Below are positions 1 to 13,493 of a stretch of DNA of 13,493 nucleotides, piece by piece. Source of the stretch: a virus (lineage: Duplodnaviria; Heunggongvirae; Uroviricota; Caudoviricetes); the IMG/VR virus record IMGVR_UViG_2690316346_000006, positions 1 through 13,493 of that record; one strand, 5' to 3'. Both the position numbers and the translations under genes were made by a program. The notes under the pieces are model-generated. The model saw only the letters and a list, made by a program, of their open reading frames with translations. It did no database searches and had not been told where the DNA came from. Within the stretch, counting starts at the first letter, position 1. Each line of letters begins with the position of its first letter.

Positions 1-51
1 ATCGGGCATTATCTGAACATAAAACACTATCAATAAGTTGGAGTCATTACC
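1..51 (+). mobile_element. IS1 terminal fragment (insB-proximal end including the terminal inverted repeat); body of the element lies upstream of the window
   Basis: Positions 1-51 are the exact reverse complement of 9926-9976 and 13443-13493, and match the remembered IS1 end ...CATCGGGCATTATCTGAACATAAAACACTATCAATAAGTTGGAGTCATTACC. Confidence 0.85.
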
Positions 52-183
52 AAACGGTTGAAATGTATGCCGCTACTTACGGGTCCTGTAATCCTCTGAA
101 TAAACCAGAGGGAAAAGATGATTTCGACAAAATTTACCGCTTCTTGGAGGACCGCTATATCAAAAGCTTAGAGGACGCAGGGA

Positions 184-2865: not shown

Positions 2866-3930
2866 ATGGCTAACGCCTGGCTCAGATTATGGCATGACAT
2901 GCCAAATGACCCTAAGTGGCGAACAATTGCCAGGGTGTCAGGGCAGCCAATTGCAACAGTGATGGCAGTGTATATCCACCTCCTGGTGAGCGCGTCACGA
3001 AATGTCACGCGAGGTCACATTGATGTCACGACAGAAGATTTGGCAAGTGCGCTCGACGTGACAGAAGAGGTAATTGATTCAATTTTGCAGACGATGCAGG
3101 GGCGGGTACTTGATGGTGATTTAATCACTGGATGGGAAAAACGCCAGGTGCTTAAAGAGGACAACGGCAATATTTCGCAAACCGCAAAATCTCCTGCAGA
3201 GCGCAAGAGGGCGCAGCGAGAGAGGGAAAGAAAGCGGGAACAAAATGGCGATTGTCACGGCGCGTCACGAAATGTCACGCACATGTCACGACGAGTCACG
3301 ACAGATACAGATAAAGATACAGATAAAGAAGATCAAAACACTATGGTCCATGGCGTAAAAAACGCCACGAACCAGGCAGGGGATGTTCAGACCGTCAATC
3401 CTGGTCAGCCAGCAGGCTCGACACCGGAAGCCGATTCAGCGTATGCGCTGAAAGCCGATTCGGGCGCTGTGCAGCAGGTGATGACCGCAAGGCCGGAGCA
3501 ATCACTCCAACTGCAGCAGCCTGAAGCCGATTCCGCCATTCAGCGGGAAGCCGATCGGGTAGCCCCGGAAAACACCGGGCAGCCTGTGGGACGAGTGGAT
3601 TATCCGGATGTGTTCGAACAGGTCTGGCGGGAATACCCGTTGCGTGCCGGGGCAAACCCGAAGAAATCCGCATTCAGTGCCTGGAAGGCCAGATTGCGCG
3701 AGGGGGTGCCACCAGAGACCATGCTGGATGGTGTGAGGCGTTACGCGAGATACCTGGCGGCGACCGGGAAAGCGGGAACGGAATTTGTTCAGCGAGCGAC
3801 GACGTTTTTTGGGCCGGACCGGAATTTTGAAAACCCCTGGTTGCTCCCGGTAAGCGGCACGAACAACCAGCGTTGTGTGAATCATATTTCTGAACCGGAT
3901 ACCGAAATTCCGCCGGGATTCAGGGGGTGA
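2866..3930 (+). CDS. phage replication initiator 1 (O-like / YdaU-like), with origin iterons embedded in the coding sequence
   Basis: ATG at 2866 preceded by GAGGTG (track start GTG 2860). Lies immediately upstream of a DnaC-like gene. Contains two clusters of GTCACG direct repeats. C-terminus ends IPPGFRG, as in the second initiator. Confidence 0.7.
   Translation: MANAWLRLWHDMPNDPKWRTIARVSGQPIATVMAVYIHLLVSASRNVTRGHIDVTTEDLASALDVTEEVIDSILQTMQGRVLDGDLITGWEKRQVLKEDNGNISQTAKSPAERKRAQRERERKREQNGDCHGASRNVTHMSRRVTTDTDKDTDKEDQNTMVHGVKNATNQAGDVQTVNPGQPAGSTPEADSAYALKADSGAVQQVMTARPEQSLQLQQPEADSAIQREADRVAPENTGQPVGRVDYPDVFEQVWREYPLRAGANPKKSAFSAWKARLREGVPPETMLDGVRRYARYLAATGKAGTEFVQRATTFFGPDRNFENPWLLPVSGTNNQRCVNHISEPDTEIPPGFRG
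2993..3030 (+). repeat. iteron cluster 1 of putative origin 1: four GTCACG/GTCAC repeats at 10-11 bp spacing
   Basis: Repeats begin at 2993, 3003, 3014 and 3025, read directly from the sequence. Confidence 0.6.
3254..3300 (+). repeat. iteron cluster 2 of putative origin 1: five GTCACG repeats at 10-11 bp spacing, followed by an ACAGATA-rich AT-rich stretch
   Basis: Repeats begin at 3254, 3264, 3274, 3285 and 3295. The roughly 45-bp unit is near-identical to cluster 1. Confidence 0.6.
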
Positions 3931-3936
3931 TGTGGC

Positions 3937-4683
3937 ATGAAAAACATTGCGGCAGCCGGGGTTCTTGAACGTATTCACAGACTTGCACCACAGGGGGCGG
4001 TTCCACCGTACCGGACGGTGGAGGAGTGGCGGGAATGGCAACTTGCTGAAGGACGAAAACGCAGCGAGGAGATTAACCGCCAGAATCGCCAGTTGCGGGT
4101 GGAAAAAATCCTGAATCGTTCGGGCATCCAGCCTCTGCACAGCAAATGCTCGTTTGCGAATTATCAGGTGCAGAACGACGGGCAAAAATACGCGCTGAGC
4201 CAGGCCAAATCCATAGCTGACGAACTGATGACCGGGTGCACGAATTTTGTGTTCAGCGGTAAAACCGGCACCGGGAAAAATCACCTTGCAGCGGCGATGG
4301 GTAACCGGCTGATGGCGAAGGGGCGCAGCGTGATTATCGTCACCGAGTCTGATGTCATGAGCGTGTTGCATGACAGCTACGACAACGGCAAATCCGGTGA
4401 AAAATTTTTACAGGAGCTTTGCGGGGTTGATTTGCTGGTCCTGGATGAAATAGGCATTCAGCGGGAGACGAAAAACGAGCAGGTGGTATTGCACCAGATA
4501 ATTGATCGCCGGACAGCATCACTGTGCAGTGTCGGGATGTTAACAAACCTGAATCATGCCGCAATGAGCACGCTTCTTGGTGAGAGGATTATGGACCGCA
4601 TGACCATGAACGGTTGTCGGTGGGTGACGTTTAACTGGGATAGCTGGCGTTCAAATGTCAGCTTTCCGGGAGTTGTGAAGTAA
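3937..4683 (+). CDS. DnaC-like helicase loader (YdaV-like), copy 1
   Basis: 248 aa with Walker A-like SGKTGTGKNHLAAA and Walker B-like DLLVLDEIG, as in DnaC. Follows the initiator with 6-bp spacing. Confidence 0.85.
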   Translation: MKNIAAAGVLERIHRLAPQGAVPPYRTVEEWREWQLAEGRKRSEEINRQNRQLRVEKILNRSGIQPLHSKCSFANYQVQNDGQKYALSQAKSIADELMTGCTNFVFSGKTGTGKNHLAAAMGNRLMAKGRSVIIVTESDVMSVLHDSYDNGKSGEKFLQELCGVDLLVLDEIGIQRETKNEQVVLHQIIDRRTASLCSVGMLTNLNHAAMSTLLGERIMDRMTMNGCRWVTFNWDSWRSNVSFPGVVK

Positions 4684-5445: not shown

Positions 5446-5868
5446 ATGGCAAAAGTATTTACACAGGAAGAGCGGGAAAAAATTAAGGGGCAGGTTGTTG
5501 AACTCGTACGCCAGAGTGGGCGCGAGACGTTACGACAACTGGAAGCTAAAACCGGGGCGACAAGATATTTAATAAGCGTTCTCGCCAGAGAGCTGGTTGC
5601 CAGTGGGGATGTATACAACTCTGGCTACGGGTTATTCCCGTCTGAACAGGCTCGTAAGGACTGGCAAAACGCCCGCAAAAAACTCTCGAGGGCAAAGCTG
5701 AAGAAACCATCTGTGGTTGATCCGGACCTTATCTGGTCATTACCGGACGGAGAAATACGCCGCTACGACAGACATCAGAACATAATCTGTCGCGAGTGCC
5801 GGAAGAGTGAAGTTATGCAGCGTGTACCGGCTTTCTATCAGGGTGATTTTCAGGAGGCGGTACTGTGA
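5446..5868 (+). CDS. hypothetical protein (about 140 aa), paralog of 9117-9539
   Basis: ATG at 5446 preferred over the listed TTG at 5431. The C-terminal ~90 aa are near-identical to the 9117-9539 product; the N-terminal ~50 aa are diverged. Confidence 0.6.
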   Translation: MAKVFTQEEREKIKGQVVELVRQSGRETLRQLEAKTGATRYLISVLARELVASGDVYNSGYGLFPSEQARKDWQNARKKLSRAKLKKPSVVDPDLIWSLPDGEIRRYDRHQNIICRECRKSEVMQRVPAFYQGDFQEAVL

Positions 5869-6282
5869 GTGAAATTAGCTATCAGGCTTCAATTACCGCT
5901 GGCATTCGCATCAAAGGAGAGGAGCATGGAAATAAAACCAGAAGATGAGTTAAGCAATATTGTTTTATTTCCGGTAAAAGAGGATAACCCTCGTAATCAG
6001 GTTAATTTTCTTTATGAGCCATCGGAAAGACCATATTGCCATCACGCTTCTGTCCGGGTTGACGAAAAAGAGCGTCAGGTCCGCTGTAAAATCTGCGGTG
6101 CGGTTGTGGAGCCGTTTGACTGGATGCTCTCTGTGGCGAAAAGAGAAACCAGACTGGCAGATGATGTAAGGCTCTTGCGCCAGGAGGAGCGGGAAAGGCG
6201 AAAAAATATAGAAAAGCTAATCCAGATTGAGCGTAACGCGAAAGCGCGGATACGCAGGGCGACAAAATCCAGAACTGAATAA
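5869..6282 (+). CDS. hypothetical small protein with a putative zinc-ribbon motif (C-H-H ... C-x2-C); copy A
   Basis: Listed start is GTG at 5869. An internal ATG at 5926 has a strong Shine-Dalgarno (AAGGAGaggagcATG) and gives 118 aa. Motif YCHHASVRVDEKERQVRCKICG. Two further copies lie at 9540-9925 and 10695-11035. Confidence 0.6.
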   Translation: MKLAIRLQLPLAFASKERSMEIKPEDELSNIVLFPVKEDNPRNQVNFLYEPSERPYCHHASVRVDEKERQVRCKICGAVVEPFDWMLSVAKRETRLADDVRLLRQEERERRKNIEKLIQIERNAKARIRRATKSRTE

Positions 6283-6309
6283 TTAAATTTAGCACTGTTA
6301 AAAATTTAA
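6283..6309. repeat. AT-rich palindrome TTAAATTT-N11-AAATTTAA immediately after the stop of the zinc-ribbon gene; repeated at 11036-11062
   Basis: Read directly from the sequence; present after copies A and C, and homology between them ends just beyond it. Confidence 0.4.
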
Positions 6310-6421
6310 TCCTTAATAACCTTTTTATTCTTTGCCACGGGTTCCGTGGCGGGAGATTATGCCGCGTGAACATGAAGATGAGGTGTACTGGCAATAGCGG
6401 ACACTACCATTTGTTCTTTTT

Positions 6422-7240
6422 TTAAGCAGCCATCTGATGATATTTTTCCCTGAAGGCTGCCGGGGAGATATTCCCCAGACGAGAGTGACGACGCTGACGA
6501 TTGTAGAAAATCTCAATGTATTCCCGTATTACTGAGATGGCTTCATCCCGGTTATTAAAACGATAGTGGCTCAGGCTCTCATTTTTCAGCGTTCCCCAGA
6601 AGCTTTCCATCGGAGCGTTGTCGTAACAGTTACCTTTACGCGACATTGATGTTTTCAGACCAGACTGCTCCTGTATGACCCGGTAATCGTATGCGCAGTA
6701 CTGTGAACCTCGATCAGAGTGGTGGATTAGCCCGGCAGGTGGGCGCTGGCTCCTGAGCGCCATAAACAGGGCTTTACCTGTCAGCTCTTTTGTCATGCGC
6801 TCTCCCATGGCGTAGCCGACAATTTCGCACGTATAAACATCTTTGATGCCAGCGAGGTACAACCATCCCTCCTGTGTGGCAACATACGTCAGGTCCGCCA
6901 CCCAGACCTGATTTGGTGCTGTAGGAGCGAACGTCTGGTTCAGCAGATTTGGCGCAACTGGCAGATTGTGGTTCGAGTTCGTAGTCGCTCTGAACTTGCG
7001 TTTCTGCTTACAGCGTAGCCTTAGCTCCTTACGAAGACGTGCCAGTCGGTCACGACCAACGATGATGCCATTCTCTGCCAGCTCCGTCTGGAGCCGCCGG
7101 GTTCCATATGTTTCGCGAGTGCGGATATGTGCCACCTTAATCTCCAGTTTTAGCCGCTCATCACTTTGTTTTCTGTCTGAGGGTTCATGCTGTACCCAGT
7201 TGTAATAACCGCTCCTGGATACACCAAATACCTGACACAT
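6422..7240 (-). CDS. IS3-family transposase OrfB (DDE catalytic part), expressed as an OrfAB fusion by -1 frameshifting
   Basis: 272-aa ORF with DDE-type transposase signatures (HSDRGSQY ... conserved acidic residues) in the -1 frame relative to orfA. Confidence 0.8.
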   Translation of the reverse strand: MCQVFGVSRSGYYNWVQHEPSDRKQSDERLKLEIKVAHIRTRETYGTRRLQTELAENGIIVGRDRLARLRKELRLRCKQKRKFRATTNSNHNLPVAPNLLNQTFAPTAPNQVWVADLTYVATQEGWLYLAGIKDVYTCEIVGYAMGERMTKELTGKALFMALRSQRPPAGLIHHSDRGSQYCAYDYRVIQEQSGLKTSMSRKGNCYDNAPMESFWGTLKNESLSHYRFNNRDEAISVIREYIEIFYNRQRRHSRLGNISPAAFREKYHQMAA

Positions 7241-7275
7241 CGCTTCAATGGGAAATTGTTGTCGCCATTGTTCGA

Positions 7276-7578
7276 TTAACGCGTATTTTTCAGCGACTCC
7301 TGTGCAAAATACGCTGTTGCTTTTTTTAATATATCTCGCTCAAGGCGAGCTTCATTTAACGCCTTACGCAGTTGCAGAATTTCAGATTCCAGTTCAGCCA
7401 CCGTGCGGGAACCAGGAGTACCGAGCCCTTTTCTGGCGGCGGTAACCCATTGTCCTAAAGTGCCTTCAGGAAGAGATAATCGGGAAGCGCCTTCACTGAT
7501 CGAAAGTTGATTTTCAAGAACCGTTCTGACAGCTTCGGCTTTGAACTCTTTAGAGTAACGTTGGGTTTTTCTGCTCAT
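7276..7578 (-). CDS. IS3-family transposase OrfA (HTH part)
   Basis: 100 aa, MSRKTQRYSKEFKAEAVRTV..., which I recognise as IS600/IS3-group OrfA. Confidence 0.8.
   Translation of the reverse strand: MSRKTQRYSKEFKAEAVRTVLENQLSISEGASRLSLPEGTLGQWVTAARKGLGTPGSRTVAELESEILQLRKALNEARLERDILKKATAYFAQESLKNTR
7320..7327 (-). promoter_or_regulatory. programmed -1 ribosomal frameshift site (A AAA AAG) within the orfA/orfB overlap of the IS3-family element
   Basis: Minus-strand sequence TTAAAAAAAGC lies where orfA and orfB overlap, as is typical of IS3-family elements. Confidence 0.6.
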
Positions 7579-7698
7579 TATTAGCTCCTTCTGATGCCAT
7601 TCTATTTCAGGAAGGAGTGTCCGTTAAACTCAGGCTACCTCAGGTTATTCGCTTCTGGGCATGGGCGGATCAACAAATGATAGACGGTAATGCAGATT

Positions 7699-8355: not shown

Positions 8356-9102
8356 ATGAAAAATATTGCGACAGGCGGCGTTCTGGAACGCATCCGCCGA
8401 CTGACCCCGCCACATGTAACCGCCCCATTCAGAACGGTAGCGGAGTGGCGCGAGTGGCAACTTGCTGAAGGCCAGAAACGTAGCGAGGAGATCAACCGCC
8501 TGAATCGCCAGTTGCGGGTGGAAAAAATTCTGAATCGCTCAGGCATCCAGCCGTTGCACCGTAAATGCTCGTTTGCGAATTACCAGGTGCAGAACGACGG
8601 CCAGCGATACGCGTTAAGCCAGGCGAAATCCATCGCCGATGAACTGATGACCGGGTGTACAAATTTTGCGTTCAGCGGAAAACCTGGTACCGGGAAGAAT
8701 CACTTAGCGGCAGCTATCGGGAATCGCCTGCTGAAAGACGGTCAGACAGTGATTGTGGTTACCGTGGCTGATGTTATGAGCGCCCTGCACGCCAGCTATG
8801 ACGACGGGCAGTCAGGCGAAAAATTTTTGCGGGAGCTGTGCGAAGTGGATCTGCTGGTTCTTGATGAAATTGGCATTCAGCGCGAGACGAAAAACGAGCA
8901 GGTGGTGCTGCACCAGATTGTTGATCGCCGGACAGCGTCGATGCGCAGCGTGGGGATGCTGACAAACCTGAACTATGAGGTGATGAAAACATTGCTCGGC
9001 GAGCGGGTGATGGATCGCATGGTCATGAACGGCGGGCGCTGGGTGAATTTTAACTGGGAGAGCTGGCGTCCGAATGTTAGCCATTCGAGGGTTGTTAAGT
9101 AG
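8356..9102 (+). CDS. DnaC-like helicase loader, copy 2 (roughly 85% amino-acid identity to copy 1 by eye)
   Basis: 248 aa with SGKPGTGKNHLAAA and DLLVLDEIG motifs; same length and architecture as 3937-4683. Confidence 0.85.
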   Translation: MKNIATGGVLERIRRLTPPHVTAPFRTVAEWREWQLAEGQKRSEEINRLNRQLRVEKILNRSGIQPLHRKCSFANYQVQNDGQRYALSQAKSIADELMTGCTNFAFSGKPGTGKNHLAAAIGNRLLKDGQTVIVVTVADVMSALHASYDDGQSGEKFLRELCEVDLLVLDEIGIQRETKNEQVVLHQIVDRRTASMRSVGMLTNLNYEVMKTLLGERVMDRMVMNGGRWVNFNWESWRPNVSHSRVVK

Positions 9103-9116
9103 TTTCAGGAGGATTT

Positions 9117-9539
9117 ATGGCGAAACCTTTTACTCCCGAACAGCGGGAAGAACTGAAGACGCGAATTGTGGAACTCGTGCATCAGGACGGTCGGGTCACG
9201 ATTCGGCAGTTGTCAGATGAAACAGGTATCAGTCGTGCGTCTGTCGGTCGCTTATGCATAGAACTGGTCGCAAGTGGTGATGTATATAATTCTGGCTACG
9301 GCTTATTCCCGTCTGAACAGGCTCGCAAGGACTGGCAAAGCGCCCGCAAAAAACTCTCGAGAGTAAAGGTGAGGAAACCGGTTGTTGTTGATCCGGACCT
9401 TATCTGGTCATTACCTGACGGAGAAATACGCCGCTACGACAGGCGCCTGAATATAATCTGTCGCGAGTGCCGGAAGAGCGAAGCTATGCAGCGTGTACTG
9501 GCTTTCTATCAGGGTAATTTTCAGGAGGCGATACTGTGA
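9117..9539 (+). CDS. hypothetical protein, paralog of 5446-5868 with a diverged N-terminus
   Basis: 140 aa; C-terminal region (ELVASGDVYNSGYGLFPSEQARKDWQ ... IICRECRKSE ...) nearly identical to copy 1. Confidence 0.6.
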   Translation: MAKPFTPEQREELKTRIVELVHQDGRVTIRQLSDETGISRASVGRLCIELVASGDVYNSGYGLFPSEQARKDWQSARKKLSRVKVRKPVVVDPDLIWSLPDGEIRRYDRRLNIICRECRKSEAMQRVLAFYQGNFQEAIL

Positions 9540-10007
9540 ATGAAATTAGCTATCAGGCTTCAATTACCGCTGGCATTCGCATCAAAGGAGAGGAGCATGG
9601 AAATAAAACCAGAAGATGAGTTAAGCAATATTGTTTTATTTCCGGTAAAAGAGGATAACCCACGTAATCAGGTTAATTTTCTTTATGAACCATCGGAAAG
9701 ACCATATTGCCATCACGCCTCTGTCCGGGTTGACGAAAAAGAGCGTCAGGTCCGCTGTAAAATTTGCGGTGCAGTTGTGGAGCCATTTGACTGGATGCTC
9801 TCTGTGGCGAAAAGAGAAACCAGACTGGCAGATGATGTAAGGCTATTGCGCCAGGAGGAACAGGAAAGGCGGAGAAATATAGAAAAGCTGATACAGATTG
9901 AGCGTAACGCGAAAGCGCGGATACGCGGTAATGACTCCAACTTATTGATAGTGTTTTATGTTCAGATAATGCCCGATGACTTTGTCATGCAGCTCCACCG
10001 ATTTTGA
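9540..10007 (+). pseudogene. zinc-ribbon small gene copy B, 3'-truncated at 9925 by IS1; the ORF reads on into IS1, giving a chimeric 26-aa tail
   Basis: Homology to copy A ends exactly at the IS1 end (...gcgcggatacgc|ggtaatgac). Translation continues ...ARIR then [26 protein letters not shown] from the IS1 sequence. Confidence 0.7.
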
Positions 10008-10445
10008 GAACGACAGCGACTTCCGTCCCAGCCGTGCCAGGTGCTGCCTCAGATTCAGGTTATGCCGCTCAATTCGCTGCGTATATCGCTTGCTGATTAC
10101 GTGCAGCTTTCCCTTCAGGCGGGATTCATACAGCGGCCAGCCATCCGTCATCCATATCACCACGTCAAAGGGTGACAGCAGGCTCATAAGACGCCCCAGC
10201 GTCGCCATAGTGCGTTCACCGAATACGTGCGCAACAACCGTCTTCCGGAGACTGTCATACGCGTAAAACAGCCAGCGCTGGCGCGATTTAGCCCCGACAT
10301 AGCCCCACTGTTCGTCCATTTCCGCGCAGACGATGACGTCACTGCCCGGCTGTATGCGCGAGGTTACCGACTGCGGCCTGAGTTTTTTAAGTGACGTAAA
10401 ATCGTGTTGAGGCCAACGCCCATAATGCGTGCAGTTGCCCGGCAT
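9942..10445 (-). CDS. insB: IS1 InsB (expressed as an InsAB' fusion by frameshifting)
   Basis: 167 aa, ...[62 protein letters not shown]..., recognised as IS1 InsB. Confidence 0.9.
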
Positions 10446-10639
10446 CCAACGCCATTCATGGCCATATCAATGATTTTCTGGTGCGTACCGGGTTGAGAAG
10501 CGGTGTAAGTGAACTGCAGTTGCCATGTTTTACGGCAGTGAGAGCAGAGATAGCGCTGATGTCCGGCAGTGCTTTTGCCGTTACGCACCACCCCGTCAGT
10601 AGCTGAACAGGAGGGACAGCTGATAGAAACAGAAGCCAC
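10364..10639 (-). CDS. insA: IS1 InsA
   Basis: 91 aa, [42 protein letters not shown]..., recognised as IS1 InsA. Confidence 0.9.
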
Positions 10640-10694
10640 TGGAGCACCTCAAAAACACCATCATACACTAAATCAGTAAGTTGGCAGCATCACC

Positions 10695-11035
10695 AAGATG
10701 AGTTAAGCAATATCGTTTTATTTCCGGTAAAAGAGGATGACCCTCGTAATCAGGTTAATTTTCTTTATGAGCCATCGGAAAGACCATATTGCCATCACGC
10801 CTCTGTACGGGTTGACGAAAAAGAGCGTCAGGTCCGCTGTAAAATCTGCGGTGCGGTTGTGGAGCCGTTTGACTGGATGCTCTCTGTGGCAAAAAGAGAA
10901 ACCAGACTGGCAGATGATGTAAGGCTATTGCGCCAGGAGGAACAGGAAAGGCGGAGAAATATAGAAAAGCTGATACAGATTGAGCGTAACGCGAAAGCGC
11001 GGATACGCAGGGCGACAAAATCCAGAACTGAATAA
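10695..11035 (+). pseudogene. zinc-ribbon small gene copy C, 5'-truncated (lacks the first ~5 codons); mosaic of copies A and B
   Basis: Begins abruptly at the IS1 end with aagatgagttaagc..., matching codon 6 onward of copy A. Its 5' half carries copy-A-type variants and its 3' half copy-B-type variants. Stop at 11033-11035. Confidence 0.65.
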
Positions 11036-11104
11036 TTAAATTTAGCACTGTTAAAAATTTAATCCTTAACCGGAGGGATTTCTGCACCCTCAAATCATCA
11101 GGAG

Positions 11105-12375: not shown

Positions 12376-12740
12376 TGATTAATCGAACCAAACTGGAGCA
12401 CATTCTCGAATATGCCAGGCAGCAGAAATGTATTGGGCAACTTTGTAAAATTCCACCAGGAGATATGGTTGAAATCGTGGAAATGGCCATGCGTAAGGCT
12501 GGCAACTCTCCGGTAGCTCCGGCTGGCTGGATAAGCTGTAGTGATGCAGTTCCTGCTGAATATTGCGATGTGATTCTTCTCGATGATCTCGGGAATGTAT
12601 TCCCCGGTTCCTGGGATAAGGTTTTTTGCCCCACTCGTGGCGGGAATAAGATGGCTTTTGTGGACAAAGACGGCGTTGAAGTAGAGAGCTCAACTCACTG
12701 GATGCCGCTACCGGAACCACCGCAGGAGGTGAATCAATGA
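12375..12740 (+). CDS. hypothetical phage protein with a DUF551-like C-terminus
   Basis: 121 aa; WISCSDAVP ... THWMPLPEPP resembles the DUF551 signature as I recall it. Confidence 0.6.
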   Translation: MINRTKLEHILEYARQQKCIGQLCKIPPGDMVEIVEMAMRKAGNSPVAPAGWISCSDAVPAEYCDVILLDDLGNVFPGSWDKVFCPTRGGNKMAFVDKDGVEVESSTHWMPLPEPPQEVNQ

Positions 12741-12820
12741 CCTGGCCTGAGGCATTCACCACGGTAGGAATTGCGATGGCGGTGGCGCTGGTGGTGTATT
12801 CGATTTGCCGTTGGGGTTAA
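12737..12820 (+). CDS. unlisted small ORF, 27 aa (MTWPEAFTTVGIAMAVALVVYSICRWG), predicted single transmembrane helix
   Basis: Perfect Shine-Dalgarno AGGAGGTGA 6 nt upstream of the ATG at 12737. Start overlaps the upstream stop (ATGA). A rho-independent terminator follows immediately. Below the length cut-off of the ORF track. Confidence 0.5.
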   Translation: MTWPEAFTTVGIAMAVALVVYSICRWG

Positions 12821-12825
12821 CAAAC

Positions 12826-12857
12826 AAAAACCCCGGATTGATGGTCCGGGGTTTTTG
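12826..12857 (+). terminator. rho-independent terminator (AAAAA-CCCCGGA-ttgatgg-TCCGGGG-TTTTT), potentially bidirectional
   Basis: 7-bp GC-rich stem, 7-nt loop and a T5 run, read directly from the sequence; 6 bp after the stop of the small ORF. Confidence 0.8.
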
Positions 12858-13195
12858 AAGGAAACAAAACAGAAACAGCAATTGCCGTTACCTGTTGTTA
12901 CCATGGCAAGTAAACGTATCTCAGGCGAGCGCATTGCGCCGTTCTGACGCAGATAAACTAGCCTGGATAGATGGTGCTGGCAATAAAAAATAGCGTTTTC
13001 TTATCGGTGTCGGTAAGATTGCTGCGGGTGCTTGAGGCTGTCTGCCTCGGGTATGTCACTGTAAGGCAGACAGAGAAAAGCCCCAGTTAACATTACGCGT
13101 CCTGCAAGACGCTTAACATTAATCTGAGGCCCAATCTATGTCTCACAAATGTAGGTTAGCCTCTTACGTGCCGAAAGGCAAGGAGAAGCAGGCTA

Positions 13196-13350
13196 TGAAG
13201 CAGCAAAAGGCGATGTTAATCGCCCTGATCGTCATCTGTTTAACCGTCATTGTGACGGCACTGGTAACGAGGAAAGACCTCTGCGAGGTACGAATCCGAA
13301 TCGGCCAGACGGAGGTCGCTGTTTTCGTAGACTACGAATCTAGAGAGTAA
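13196..13350 (+). CDS. hok: Hok/Gef-family type I toxin (closest by memory to HokD/RelF or HokC)
   Basis: MKQQKAMLIALIVICLTVIVTALVTRKDLCEVRIRIGQTEVAVFVDYESRE; AAGGAG lies 9 nt upstream of the ATG at 13196. The ORF track extends in frame to an ATG at 13138. Confidence 0.85.
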
Positions 13351-13442
13351 GAGTGACCAGGCGGGAGAGTAATCTCCCGCCACCTTTGATGTGTCAGGCA
13401 TCCTCAACGCACCCGCACTTAACCCGTTTCGGCGGTTTTTTT

Positions 13443-13493
13443 GGTAATGACTCCAACTTATTGATAGTGTTTTATGTTCAGATAATGCCCGAT
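13443..13493 (-). mobile_element. IS1 terminal fragment (insB-proximal end), element in minus orientation with its body downstream of the window
   Basis: Identical to 9926-9976 and the exact reverse complement of 1-51. Confidence 0.85.

What the first reader, a model, noticed from the sequence alone, without database searches (positions are those of the whole stretch)
12860..13442. Hok/Gef-family toxin locus with structured flanks and an IS1 inserted immediately downstream
The toxin ORF has a strong ribosome-binding site. Upstream there is a 9-bp stem (CTGTCTGCC at 13038-13046 pairing with GGCAGACAG at 13065-13073); downstream a GC hairpin (13360-13381) and a T7 run that abuts the IS1 end at 13443. 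This resembles the long-range-folding hok mRNAs. An in-frame ATG at 13138 would extend the toxin by 19 codons, whereas canonical mok frames overlap hok out of frame, so the upstream regulation may be atypical. I could not confidently identify a Sok antisense promoter. Chromosomal hok loci are often flanked by insertion sequences, and the adjacent IS1 may have altered the 3' fold-back region or terminator.
Basis: partly seen in the sequence, partly recalled or inferred. Interest (0 to 1): 0.5.

Follow-up and report, generated by a model that had tools for sequence, protein, structure and literature searches.

The report
Complete hok/mok/sok toxin locus beside IS1
This is an ordinary, already catalogued Hok-type toxin/antisense-RNA cassette in a decayed prophage of Shigella sonnei; all its known regulatory parts are present, and the IS1 element next to it starts just after the transcript's end.

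Summary
The locus is a complete hok/mok/sok type I toxin-antitoxin cassette of the hokD/hokW clade.

- **Family matches.** Hok (51 aa, 13195-13350) matches Pfam HOK_GEF. The leader at 13026-13200 matches Rfam RF01794 at 118 bits against a cut-off of 59.
- **mok.** The in-frame ATG at 13138 is mok. The same layout (70 aa, stop shared with hok) is annotated for mokW/hokW in phage 933W and for mokC/hokC in K-12, so it is normal for this clade. Only R1-type plasmid loci have an out-of-frame mok.
- **Sok.** The Sok promoter is present on the minus strand: -35 TTGCCT at 13181-13176 and -10 TAACCT at 13158-13153. It is identical to the sokW promoter region of Sp5, which has been tested by experiment. 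The predicted Sok RNA runs 13146->13076.
- **mRNA switch.** Folding reproduces the R1 switch. The 5' end (13026-13037) pairs with fbi (13402-13414). After 3' truncation it pairs with ucb instead.
- **IS1.** IS1 starts after T7 of the terminator's T-run; IS1-free relatives have T8. There is no target duplication, and 135 bp of downstream spacer is missing. The terminator stem is weak, but it is equally weak in an IS1-free relative.

The exact protein is on at least 1000 contigs and is named Shigella sonnei. Low novelty.

The parts
13014..13019 (+). Putative hok/mok mRNA promoter -10 (TAAGAT). There is no convincing -35.
   Evidence: It fits TANNNT and lies 6 nt upstream of the predicted +1 at 13026, the same position as R1's TATGAT -10 (PMC9841398). 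Read directly from the sequence. Inferred, not tested.
13026..13037 (+). mRNA 5' end and tac element (GGGUGCUUGAGG)
   Evidence: Position 1 of the Rfam RF01794 match. It pairs with fbi in the full-length MFE and with ucb in the truncated MFE. The same 12-mer occurs in 933W, K-12 hokC and the IncY hokD locus.
13036..13075 (+). Conserved 5' hairpin.
   Evidence: Paired in the Rfam consensus and in every fold.
13078..13086 (+). ucb (anti-SD box)
   Evidence: Bases 13080-13086 pair with the mok SD region (13124-13130) in the full-length fold. Bases 13078-13084 pair with tac after 3' truncation.
13076..13146 (-). Sok-like antisense RNA (71 nt): a 14-nt single-stranded 5' tail over the mok AUG, then a long hairpin, then UUUU
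   Evidence: The sokW annotation of 933W and VT2-Sakai maps onto these coordinates. It folds at -29.2 kcal/mol with the same shape as sokW.
13153..13181 (-). Sok promoter: -35 TTGCCT (13181-13176), 17-nt spacer, -10 TAACCT (13158-13153)
   Evidence: Bases 13149-13200 are identical to Sp5/933W. The sokW promoter was shown to be functional by -10 mutation (PMC8621323).
13126..13129 (+). mok Shine-Dalgarno (GAGG)
   Evidence: It lies 8 nt before the ATG at 13138. It is sequestered by ucb in the full-length fold and pairs with dcb (13159-13163) in the Rfam consensus.
13138..13350 (+). mok reading frame (70 aa), in frame with hok and sharing its stop codon
   Evidence: Same layout as annotated mokW and mokC. 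This exact 70-aa sequence is on 998 contigs and is named for Shigella sonnei.
13195..13350 (+). hok toxin gene (51 aa), SD AAGGAG at 13180-13185, carrying a T36I substitution
   Evidence: Pfam PF01848 at 76 bits. 98% identical to Hok of E. coli FDAARGOS_944. 107 of 120 relatives have T at residue 36 and 5 have I.
13360..13381 (+). GC-rich 9-bp hairpin in the 3' UTR; likely 3' end protector of the processed, active mRNA
   Evidence: Present in every fold and conserved in hokD, hokW and hokC. Its role is inferred from the R1 'last stem-loop of Tr-hok' (PMC9841398).
13402..13414 (+). fbi (fold-back inhibition) element CCUCAACGCACCC
   Evidence: Forms 12 bp with one bulge against tac, duplex -21.1 kcal/mol. 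Identical in IS1-free relatives.
13424..13442 (+). Terminator: 4-bp stem CCGU/GCGG, UUCG loop, then U7. It is weakened relative to the clade consensus.
   Evidence: -3.8 kcal/mol against -11 to -14 for K-12 hokD, A19 and others. The differences are 13427 C>T and 13436 G>T. FDAARGOS_944, which has no IS1, has the same weak stem.
13443..13493 (-). Terminal 51 bp (IRR end) of a 768-bp IS1; its transposase gene converges on hok
   Evidence: The junction is identical in six S. sonnei records and four IMG/VR contigs.

Best explanation
Window 13014-13442 is a complete hok/mok/sok type I toxin-antitoxin cassette of the hokD/hokW clade. It sits in the nin region of an IS-riddled lambdoid prophage remnant of Shigella sonnei.

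Proposed mechanism, by homology with R1 hok/sok and Sp5 hokW-sokW:
1. A weak promoter makes a ~417-nt mRNA starting at 13026.
2. In the full-length mRNA the 5' tac element pairs with the 3' fbi element, and ucb covers the mok ribosome-binding site. The mRNA is then neither translated nor bound by Sok.
3. Slow 3' trimming back to the GC hairpin (13360-13381) removes fbi. tac then pairs with ucb, the mok SD is released, and ribosomes starting at the mok ATG (13138) read in frame through the hok SD and ATG. This allows synthesis of the 51-aa membrane toxin.
4. The unstable ~71-nt Sok RNA is made from the minus-strand promoter at 13181-13153. It pairs with the mok start region and blocks or destroys the activated mRNA.

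The IS1 at 13443 lies after the last U of the terminator. It removed one T and, with it, 135 bp of downstream spacer. It touched no hok element.

Shown here: sequence identities, family matches and in-silico pairings. Inferred: transcript ends, translational coupling, toxicity and Sok action.
For: - **Family matches.** Pfam HOK_GEF E=1.7e-21. Rfam RF01794 at 118 bits against a cut-off of 59 over 13026-13200.
- **Layout.** mokW/hokW/sokW annotations of 933W and VT2-Sakai map one-to-one onto the window: mok 13138, hok 13195, sok 13076-13146.
- **Sok promoter.** The region is identical to Sp5. In Sp5, HokW was toxic and sokW from its own promoter neutralised it (PMC8621323).
- **mRNA switch.** The MFE of the full-length RNA pairs 13026-13037 with 13402-13414, and 13080-13086 with the mok SD. 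Truncated RNAs pair 13026-13033 with 13078-13084. z = -5.9 against shuffles.
- **IS1 boundary.** An IS1-free relative that is 99.5% identical (FDAARGOS_944) matches base for base from fbi to the end of the terminator stem and has T8 where the window has T7.
- **Source.** S. sonnei Ss046 (CP000038.1) and other complete genomes carry the same junction with a 768-bp IS1. The exact Hok and Mok-Hok sequences are named for Shigella sonnei and occur on ~1000 contigs.
- **Context.** DUF551, HNH and DUF4014 genes lie upstream. In Ss046 and in IS1-free FDAARGOS_944, DUF1367, YbcO/DUF1364 and a Q-like DUF1133 gene lie downstream, beyond the window's end. This is a lambdoid nin-region arrangement.
Against: - No expression or toxicity data exist for this allele.
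- Hok carries T36I, where 107 of 120 close relatives have T, so activity could be reduced.
- The terminator hairpin is no more stable than shuffled sequence, so the true 3' end may lie inside IS1.
- The hok promoter has no recognisable -35, and the generic promoter scan found nothing on either strand.
- In the truncated MFE the mok SD pairs locally (13140-13145) rather than with the dcb box of the Rfam/R1 model.
- tac and fbi are invariant among the relatives compared. The only change seen is C-to-T in fbi, which turns G-C pairs into G-U. These loci therefore give no compensatory covariation of their own.
Confidence: 0.88

Rival explanations
1. The cassette is a decaying, functionally silent remnant. 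The T36I change inactivates or attenuates the toxin, and the weakened terminator plus IS1 perturb mRNA 3'-end formation. The locus would then persist only as neutral baggage in a defective prophage.
For: - The I36 variant is a minority state, 5 of 120.
- The terminator stem is -3.8 kcal/mol against -11 to -14 in most relatives.
- The surrounding prophage is broken up by IS1 and IS600-like elements and contains duplicated segments.
- K-12 offers a precedent for a hok locus disturbed by an IS: IS186 lies 19 bp beyond the hokC stop codon (PMC3562002).
Against: - No frameshift, stop codon or promoter lesion is present.
- Every regulatory element is intact and identical, or nearly so, to the functional hokW-sokW locus.
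- The identical ORF is kept on ~1000 S. sonnei contigs.
- T-to-I recurs in at least four different Hok backgrounds, which is also what a tolerated polymorphism would look like.
- The weak terminator is also present in IS1-free E. coli.
Confidence: 0.25
2. IS1 changes hok regulation. One route is hok read-through into IS1, giving a longer mRNA with altered 3' processing. The other is convergent IS1 transposase transcripts reading out of the IS1 end as a second antisense RNA across fbi and the hok 3' UTR.
For: - The weak terminator is followed directly by IS1.
- The insB gene converges on hok and ends about 15 nt inside the IS1 end (read from the sequence).
- The hok terminator has no U-run when read on the minus strand.
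- In K-12, gef mRNA is reported to extend into IS186 and still be regulated (PMC3562002).
Against: - This is purely inferential and no transcript data exist.
- T7 is retained, and the stem is the same as in the IS1-free relative, so termination should be no worse than before the insertion.
- IS1 transposase transcription is known to be weak and self-repressed (established knowledge, not tested here).
Confidence: 0.1
3. The upstream in-frame ATG marks an atypical regulatory design: an N-terminally extended toxin rather than a mok leader.
For: - The frames coincide, so initiation at 13138 must produce a 70-aa protein containing all of Hok.
- Mok start-site assignment is acknowledged to be uncertain across the family (bioRxiv 10.1101/2025.08.07.668861).
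Against: - The same 57-nt in-frame arrangement is annotated as mok in 933W, VT2-Sakai and K-12 hokC.
- 89 of the 120 nearest database entries are called at 70 aa.
- The first six codons of the extension vary freely among relatives (MSHKC, MLNTC, MLVTY and others). This is where the Sok 5' tail pairs, so the constraint appears to be on the RNA rather than the peptide.
Confidence: 0.05

Closest known systems
hokW-mokW-sokW of Stx2 phages 933W and Sp5 (VT2-Sakai), E. coli O157:H7
   Same: - 92.7% DNA identity over window 13018-13424.
- Same 170-nt leader, and the same in-frame 70-aa mok and 51-aa hok.
- Identical Sok promoter, Sok hairpin and tac/fbi sequences.
- Lambdoid prophage location.
- Toxicity and sokW antidote activity were shown experimentally for hokW (PMC8621323).
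   Different: - The Sok 5' tail and the mok start region differ at about 6 of 19 positions, so the antisense specificity probably differs.
- The Hok C-terminus is ...ESRE rather than ...ESEK, and residue 36 is I rather than T.
- In 933W the sequence after fbi diverges and has no hokD-type terminator.
- 933W has no IS1.
hokD (relF) of the Qin cryptic prophage, E. coli K-12
   Same: The Hok protein is about 88% identical. The 3' UTR shares the GC hairpin, the fbi element and a terminator of the same design.
   Different: In K-12 hokD the homology stops just upstream of the hok SD, where relBE takes its place. tac, ucb, mok and sok are therefore missing. The window has the full upstream module. 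The K-12 terminator stem is intact (-12.3 kcal/mol) whereas the window's is weak (-3.8).
hokC (gef)/mokC/sokC of E. coli K-12 with IS186 downstream
   Same: A chromosomal hok locus with an in-frame mok that shares the stop codon, with an insertion sequence just downstream.
   Different: IS186 ends 19 bp after the hokC stop codon and displaces fbi and the terminator (PMC3562002). Here IS1 begins 92 bp after the stop codon, beyond both fbi and the terminator, so nothing of the transcript is lost.
hok/mok/sok (parB) of plasmid R1
   Same: The element set and the predicted two-state mRNA switch are the same: tac/fbi, ucb/mok SD, then tac/ucb after 3' processing (PMC9841398). It also has a 70-codon mok, with 19 codons upstream of hok.
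   Different: - The protein is only about 44% identical (the value given for HokW in PMC8621323).
- R1 mok is out of frame: the start codons are 58 nt apart, against 57 nt here.
- R1 is plasmid-borne and acts in post-segregational killing.

Membership tests
Hok/Gef toxin family (Pfam PF01848) | Profile match above the curated cut-off | tested here: met
   76 bits against a cut-off of 22, E=1.7e-21, covering all 42 profile positions.
Hok/Gef toxin family (Pfam PF01848) | ~50-aa protein with an N-terminal hydrophobic helix and a conserved RK-x-LCE motif | tested here: met
   51 aa...LIALIVICLTVIVTALVTRKDLCEV....
Hok/Gef toxin family (Pfam PF01848) | Membrane toxicity when expressed | not testable with these tools
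   Shown only for the close homologue HokW (PMC8621323). This allele differs at T36I and at the C-terminus.
[quoted passage not shown] | hok mRNA leader matching the family covariance model | tested here: met
   RF01794 at 118.1 bits against a gathering score of 59, model positions 1-157 of 157. The match is on the hok-sense strand.
[quoted passage not shown] | Cis-encoded antisense RNA with its own promoter and terminator, overlapping the mok start | tested here: met
   The sequence features are present and the promoter is identical to that of annotated and tested sokW (PMC8621323). Transcription of this copy was not tested.
[quoted passage not shown] | mok leader reading frame with its own SD, starting upstream of hok and overlapping it | tested here: met
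   ATG at 13138 with GAGG 8 nt upstream; 70 aa. Translational coupling was not tested.
[quoted passage not shown] | 5'-3' long-range tac/fbi pairing, with ucb covering the mok SD; a switch to tac/ucb after the 3' end is removed | tested here: met
   The thermodynamic folds show both states. Duplex energy is -21.1 kcal/mol. This is in silico only. The relatives compared show only G-C to G-U changes and no compensatory changes.
[quoted passage not shown] | mok out of frame with hok, as in R1 | tested here: not met
   The frames coincide, 57 nt apart. This is not a defining feature of the family: mokC/hokC and mokW/hokW are annotated in frame, whereas R1-like plasmid loci are out of frame.
[quoted passage not shown] | Intrinsic terminator after fbi | tested here: inconclusive
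   U7 is present, but the stem is only 4 bp at -3.8 kcal/mol, no better than shuffled sequence. The tool's terminator rule does not call it. The consensus stem in relatives is -11 to -14 kcal/mol.
IS1 insertion sequence | 768-bp element with terminal inverted repeats, encoding InsA and InsB | tested here: met
   The window holds only the terminal 51 bp. In S. sonnei genomes the element at this junction is 767-769 bp, runs from GGTAATGAC... to ...GGCAGCATCACC, and carries the Zn_ribbon_InsA, HTH_Tnp_IS1 and DDE_Tnp_IS1 domains.
IS1 insertion sequence | Short direct target-site duplication (usually 9 bp) flanking a simple insertion | tested here: not met
   The left flank is GGTTTTTTT and the right flank is TTTTGTCTC. 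135 bp present in the IS1-free relative is missing. This fits an IS1-associated adjacent deletion or recombination between IS1 copies.

The most novel reading that the evidence does not exclude
The S. sonnei allele could be a naturally rewired hok locus. A terminator stem already weakened by two substitutions, followed directly by a convergently transcribed IS1, could let hok mRNA run into IS1. It could also let IS1 transposase read-through act as a second antisense RNA over fbi and the 3' UTR. Together with the T36I toxin variant, this would change when, or whether, the toxin is activated in a lineage where the junction recurred in every S. sonnei record examined.
Probability: 0.08. Interest if true: 0.35.

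Novelty: already known. Interest (0 to 1): 0.1.

Why it matters
It matters little beyond correct annotation. The window shows that:
- hokC/hokD/hokW-clade loci normally have mok in frame with hok;
- the Sok promoter is too far from consensus for a generic promoter scan to find it;
- an IS next to a hok gene does not necessarily damage it. Here IS1 stops one base inside the terminator's T-run, unlike IS186 at K-12 hokC.

For S. sonnei genomics it is one more example of IS1-driven erosion around prophage remnants that left a toxin-antitoxin cassette intact.

Tried and rejected
- **Consensus promoter scan of 12780-13493.** It found no sites on either strand. This was rejected as evidence of absence, because the homologous and experimentally tested sokW promoter matches only 7 of 12 consensus positions.
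- **Exact-junction scan of genome contigs.** No hits, probably because Shigella is folded into E. coli in a one-genome-per-species set. The same pattern found four IMG/VR contigs, and the protein look-up found S. sonnei genomes.
- **K-12 hokB region.** I guessed the coordinates and they were wrong; only gapC appeared. Not pursued.
- **Supplementary tables of PMC9841398.** I looked for substitutions at R1 Hok D37, which is equivalent to I36 here. The tables are not held, so the effect of T36I remains open.
- **Low-threshold Rfam scan of 12700-13493.** It gave only sub-threshold matches, driven by the terminator hairpin at 12825-12857, so nothing else is called in the 12860-13025 part of the finding.
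- **Is the missing target duplication an assembly artefact?** Considered and rejected. The same flanks occur in four complete S. sonnei chromosomes.
- **Is the weak terminator a consequence of IS1?** Considered and rejected. IS1-free FDAARGOS_944 has the identical stem.

Full report
**Observation.** Every coordinate in the finding is correct.
- CTGTCTGCC (13038-13046) is the reverse complement of GGCAGACAG (13065-13073).
- A 9-bp GC hairpin lies at 13360-13381.
- A T7 run lies at 13436-13442, and GGTAATGACTCC... starts at 13443.
- A 51-aa ORF runs 13195-13350, preceded by AAGGAG at 13180-13185.
- An ATG at 13138 lies 57 nt upstream of the hok ATG and in frame, giving a 70-aa ORF.

None of this is chance.
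- The protein matches Pfam HOK_GEF at E=1.7e-21.
- The leader 13026-13200 matches Rfam RF01794 end to end at 118 bits against a cut-off of 59.
- The 417-nt transcript folds 5.9 standard deviations better than shuffled sequence.
- The Rfam family is called 'sok', but the match is on the hok-sense strand. It begins at the mRNA 5' end and ends at the hok start codon.

**Source and context.** The exact 51-aa and 70-aa proteins are on about 1000 contigs and are named for Shigella sonnei. Complete S. sonnei chromosomes, including CP000038.1, carry the identical locus and junction.

Upstream genes are DUF4014, HNH and DUF551. Beyond the IS1 come DUF1367, YbcO/DUF1364 and a Q-like DUF1133 gene. This is the nin region of a lambdoid prophage.

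The window is an inter-IS1 contig. It contains a further complete IS1 and an IS600-like element, and three paralogous copies of one prophage segment. This is a heavily eroded prophage landscape.

**mok.** It is atypical only relative to plasmid R1. There the mok and hok start codons are 58 nt apart, as computed from the substitution names T117/G118 and G176 in PMC9841398. R1-like plasmid loci annotate a separate DUF5431 protein that ends at a different position from Hok.

In the clade to which this locus belongs, mok is in frame and shares the hok stop codon:
- mokW/hokW of 933W and VT2-Sakai;
- mokC/hokC of K-12.

Of the 120 closest database clusters, 89 are called as the 70-aa form. The first five or six codons of the extension vary freely among relatives (MSHKC, MLNTC, MLVTY, MTCTL...). 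This is the stretch that pairs with the Sok 5' tail, so the constraint there appears to be on the RNA rather than the peptide.

**Sok.** The GenBank sokW features of 933W and VT2-Sakai map to window 13146->13076 on the minus strand.
- The RNA has a 14-nt single-stranded 5' tail complementary to the mok start region, then a long hairpin (-29.2 kcal/mol), then UUUU.
- Upstream lie -35 TTGCCT (13181-13176), a 17-nt spacer and -10 TAACCT (13158-13153).
- The stretch 13149-13200 is 100% identical to Sp5 and 933W.
- In Sp5, HokW was toxic, sokW expressed from its own promoter neutralised it, and mutating the -10 abolished protection (PMC8621323).
- The generic promoter scan finds nothing because this promoter matches only 7 of 12 consensus positions.

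**mRNA switch.** In the full-length fold, 13026-13037 (tac) pairs with 13402-13414 (fbi) over 12 bp with one bulge, and 13080-13086 (ucb) covers the mok SD region at 13124-13130.

When the 3' end is cut back to 13385-13400, tac pairs with 13078-13084 (ucb) and the ucb/SD pairing is lost. This is the two-state mechanism described for R1 (PMC9841398).

The same tac 12-mer and an fbi partner are present in 933W, in IS1-free E. coli relatives, in an IncY phage-plasmid hokD locus and in an intact hokC locus. The fbi partner is missing in K-12 hokC, where IS186 ends 19 bp beyond the stop codon (PMC3562002).

K-12 hokD shares the coding sequence and 3' UTR but lacks everything upstream of the hok SD. 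The window therefore holds the complete version of a hokD-type locus.

**IS1 and the 3' end.** The closest IS1-free relative is E. coli FDAARGOS_944, 99.5% identical. It matches the window base for base from fbi to the end of the terminator stem, and reads GGCGG-T8-GTTGCG where the window reads GGCGG-T7-IS1. IS1 therefore begins one base inside the T-run and removes no hok element.

It is not a simple insertion:
- There is no target duplication. The flanks are GGTTTTTTT and TTTTGTCTC.
- 135 bp of spacer between the terminator and the next gene is missing relative to FDAARGOS_944.

This fits an IS1-associated adjacent deletion or recombination between IS1 copies. That reading is an inference.

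**Two subtler points.**
1. The terminator stem is weak. CCGU/GCGG folds at -3.8 kcal/mol, no better than shuffled sequence. The clade consensus CCCGC/GCGGG folds at -11 to -14 kcal/mol. The cause is two substitutions, at 13427 and 13436. FDAARGOS_944 has the same weak stem, so the weakening predates IS1.
2. Hok carries T36I. Among 120 close relatives, 107 have T and 5 have I, and the I variants occur in at least four backgrounds. I could not find data on the effect of this substitution.

**Verdict.** This is a canonical hok/mok/sok cassette of the hokD/hokW type that is already catalogued.
- The identification as Hok plus an adjacent IS1 is right.
- The three suggested oddities do not hold up. 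mok in frame is normal for the clade, the Sok promoter is present, and the fold-back element and terminator are not damaged by IS1.
- What remains open is whether this particular allele (I36, weak terminator, convergent IS1) is fully active. Only experiments can settle that.

Noticed in passing
window 1-54, 9927-10694, 13443-13493: The window is bounded by IS1 ends on both sides: bases 1-54 are the reverse complement of 13440-13493. It also contains a complete 768-bp IS1. It looks like a short-read contig that broke at IS1 repeats.
   Followed up: partly
window 5586-6316, 9257-9926, 10695-11069: There are three paralogous copies (93-97% identical) of one prophage segment. The internal IS1 is flanked by a 314-bp direct duplication (9613-9926 and 10695-11008) rather than a 9-bp target repeat. 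This suggests that IS-mediated recombination joined several lambdoid prophage remnants. Two DnaC/IstB-like genes (3937-4683 and 8356-9102) fit this picture.
   Followed up: partly
window ~6378-7642 (ORF 6422-7240, minus strand): An IS3-family element. Its transposase has rve and HTH_21 domains. E. coli relatives annotate IS600 at the matching place.
   Followed up: no
window 12737-12820 (+), 12825-12857: A 27-aa hydrophobic ORF (MTWPEAFTTVGIAMAVALVVYSICRWG) starts at the ATGA that overlaps the stop codon of the DUF551 gene. A strong 13-bp bidirectional terminator hairpin follows it. The ORF is not annotated in related genomes and has no Pfam match. It may be a small membrane peptide or may be chance.
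   Followed up: no
window 13301 (Hok codon 36): ACC>ATC gives T36I in the S. sonnei Hok. All sampled E. coli, phage and K-12 relatives of this clade have T. Among 120 database clusters, I appears 5 times in at least four different backgrounds.
   Followed up: partly
window 13424-13442: The hok terminator stem is weakened by 13427 C>T and 13436 G>T: -3.8 kcal/mol against -11 to -14 in most relatives. IS1-free E. coli FDAARGOS_944 shares the weak stem.
   Followed up: yes
L018 (S. sonnei Ss046) 3249-4016 and flanks; L001 3624-3758: The IS1 downstream of hok lacks a target-site duplication, and 135 bp present in the IS1-free relative is missing.
   Followed up: yes
L006 2612-3034 (IMG/VR contig IMGVR_UViG_2690316285_000008): A second hok locus, 90% identical, lies about 0.9 kb beyond the IS1 junction in the opposite orientation. 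In this contig the IS1 is represented by only 54 bp joined to an IS600 end, so the contig may be a repeat-collapsed assembly.
   Followed up: no
window 13133-13148 compared with 933W: The Sok 5' tail and the mok start region form the most divergent stretch between this locus and hokW, about 6 of 19 positions. The promoter and hairpin are nearly invariant. This fits diversification of antisense specificity among co-resident hok loci.
   Followed up: partly
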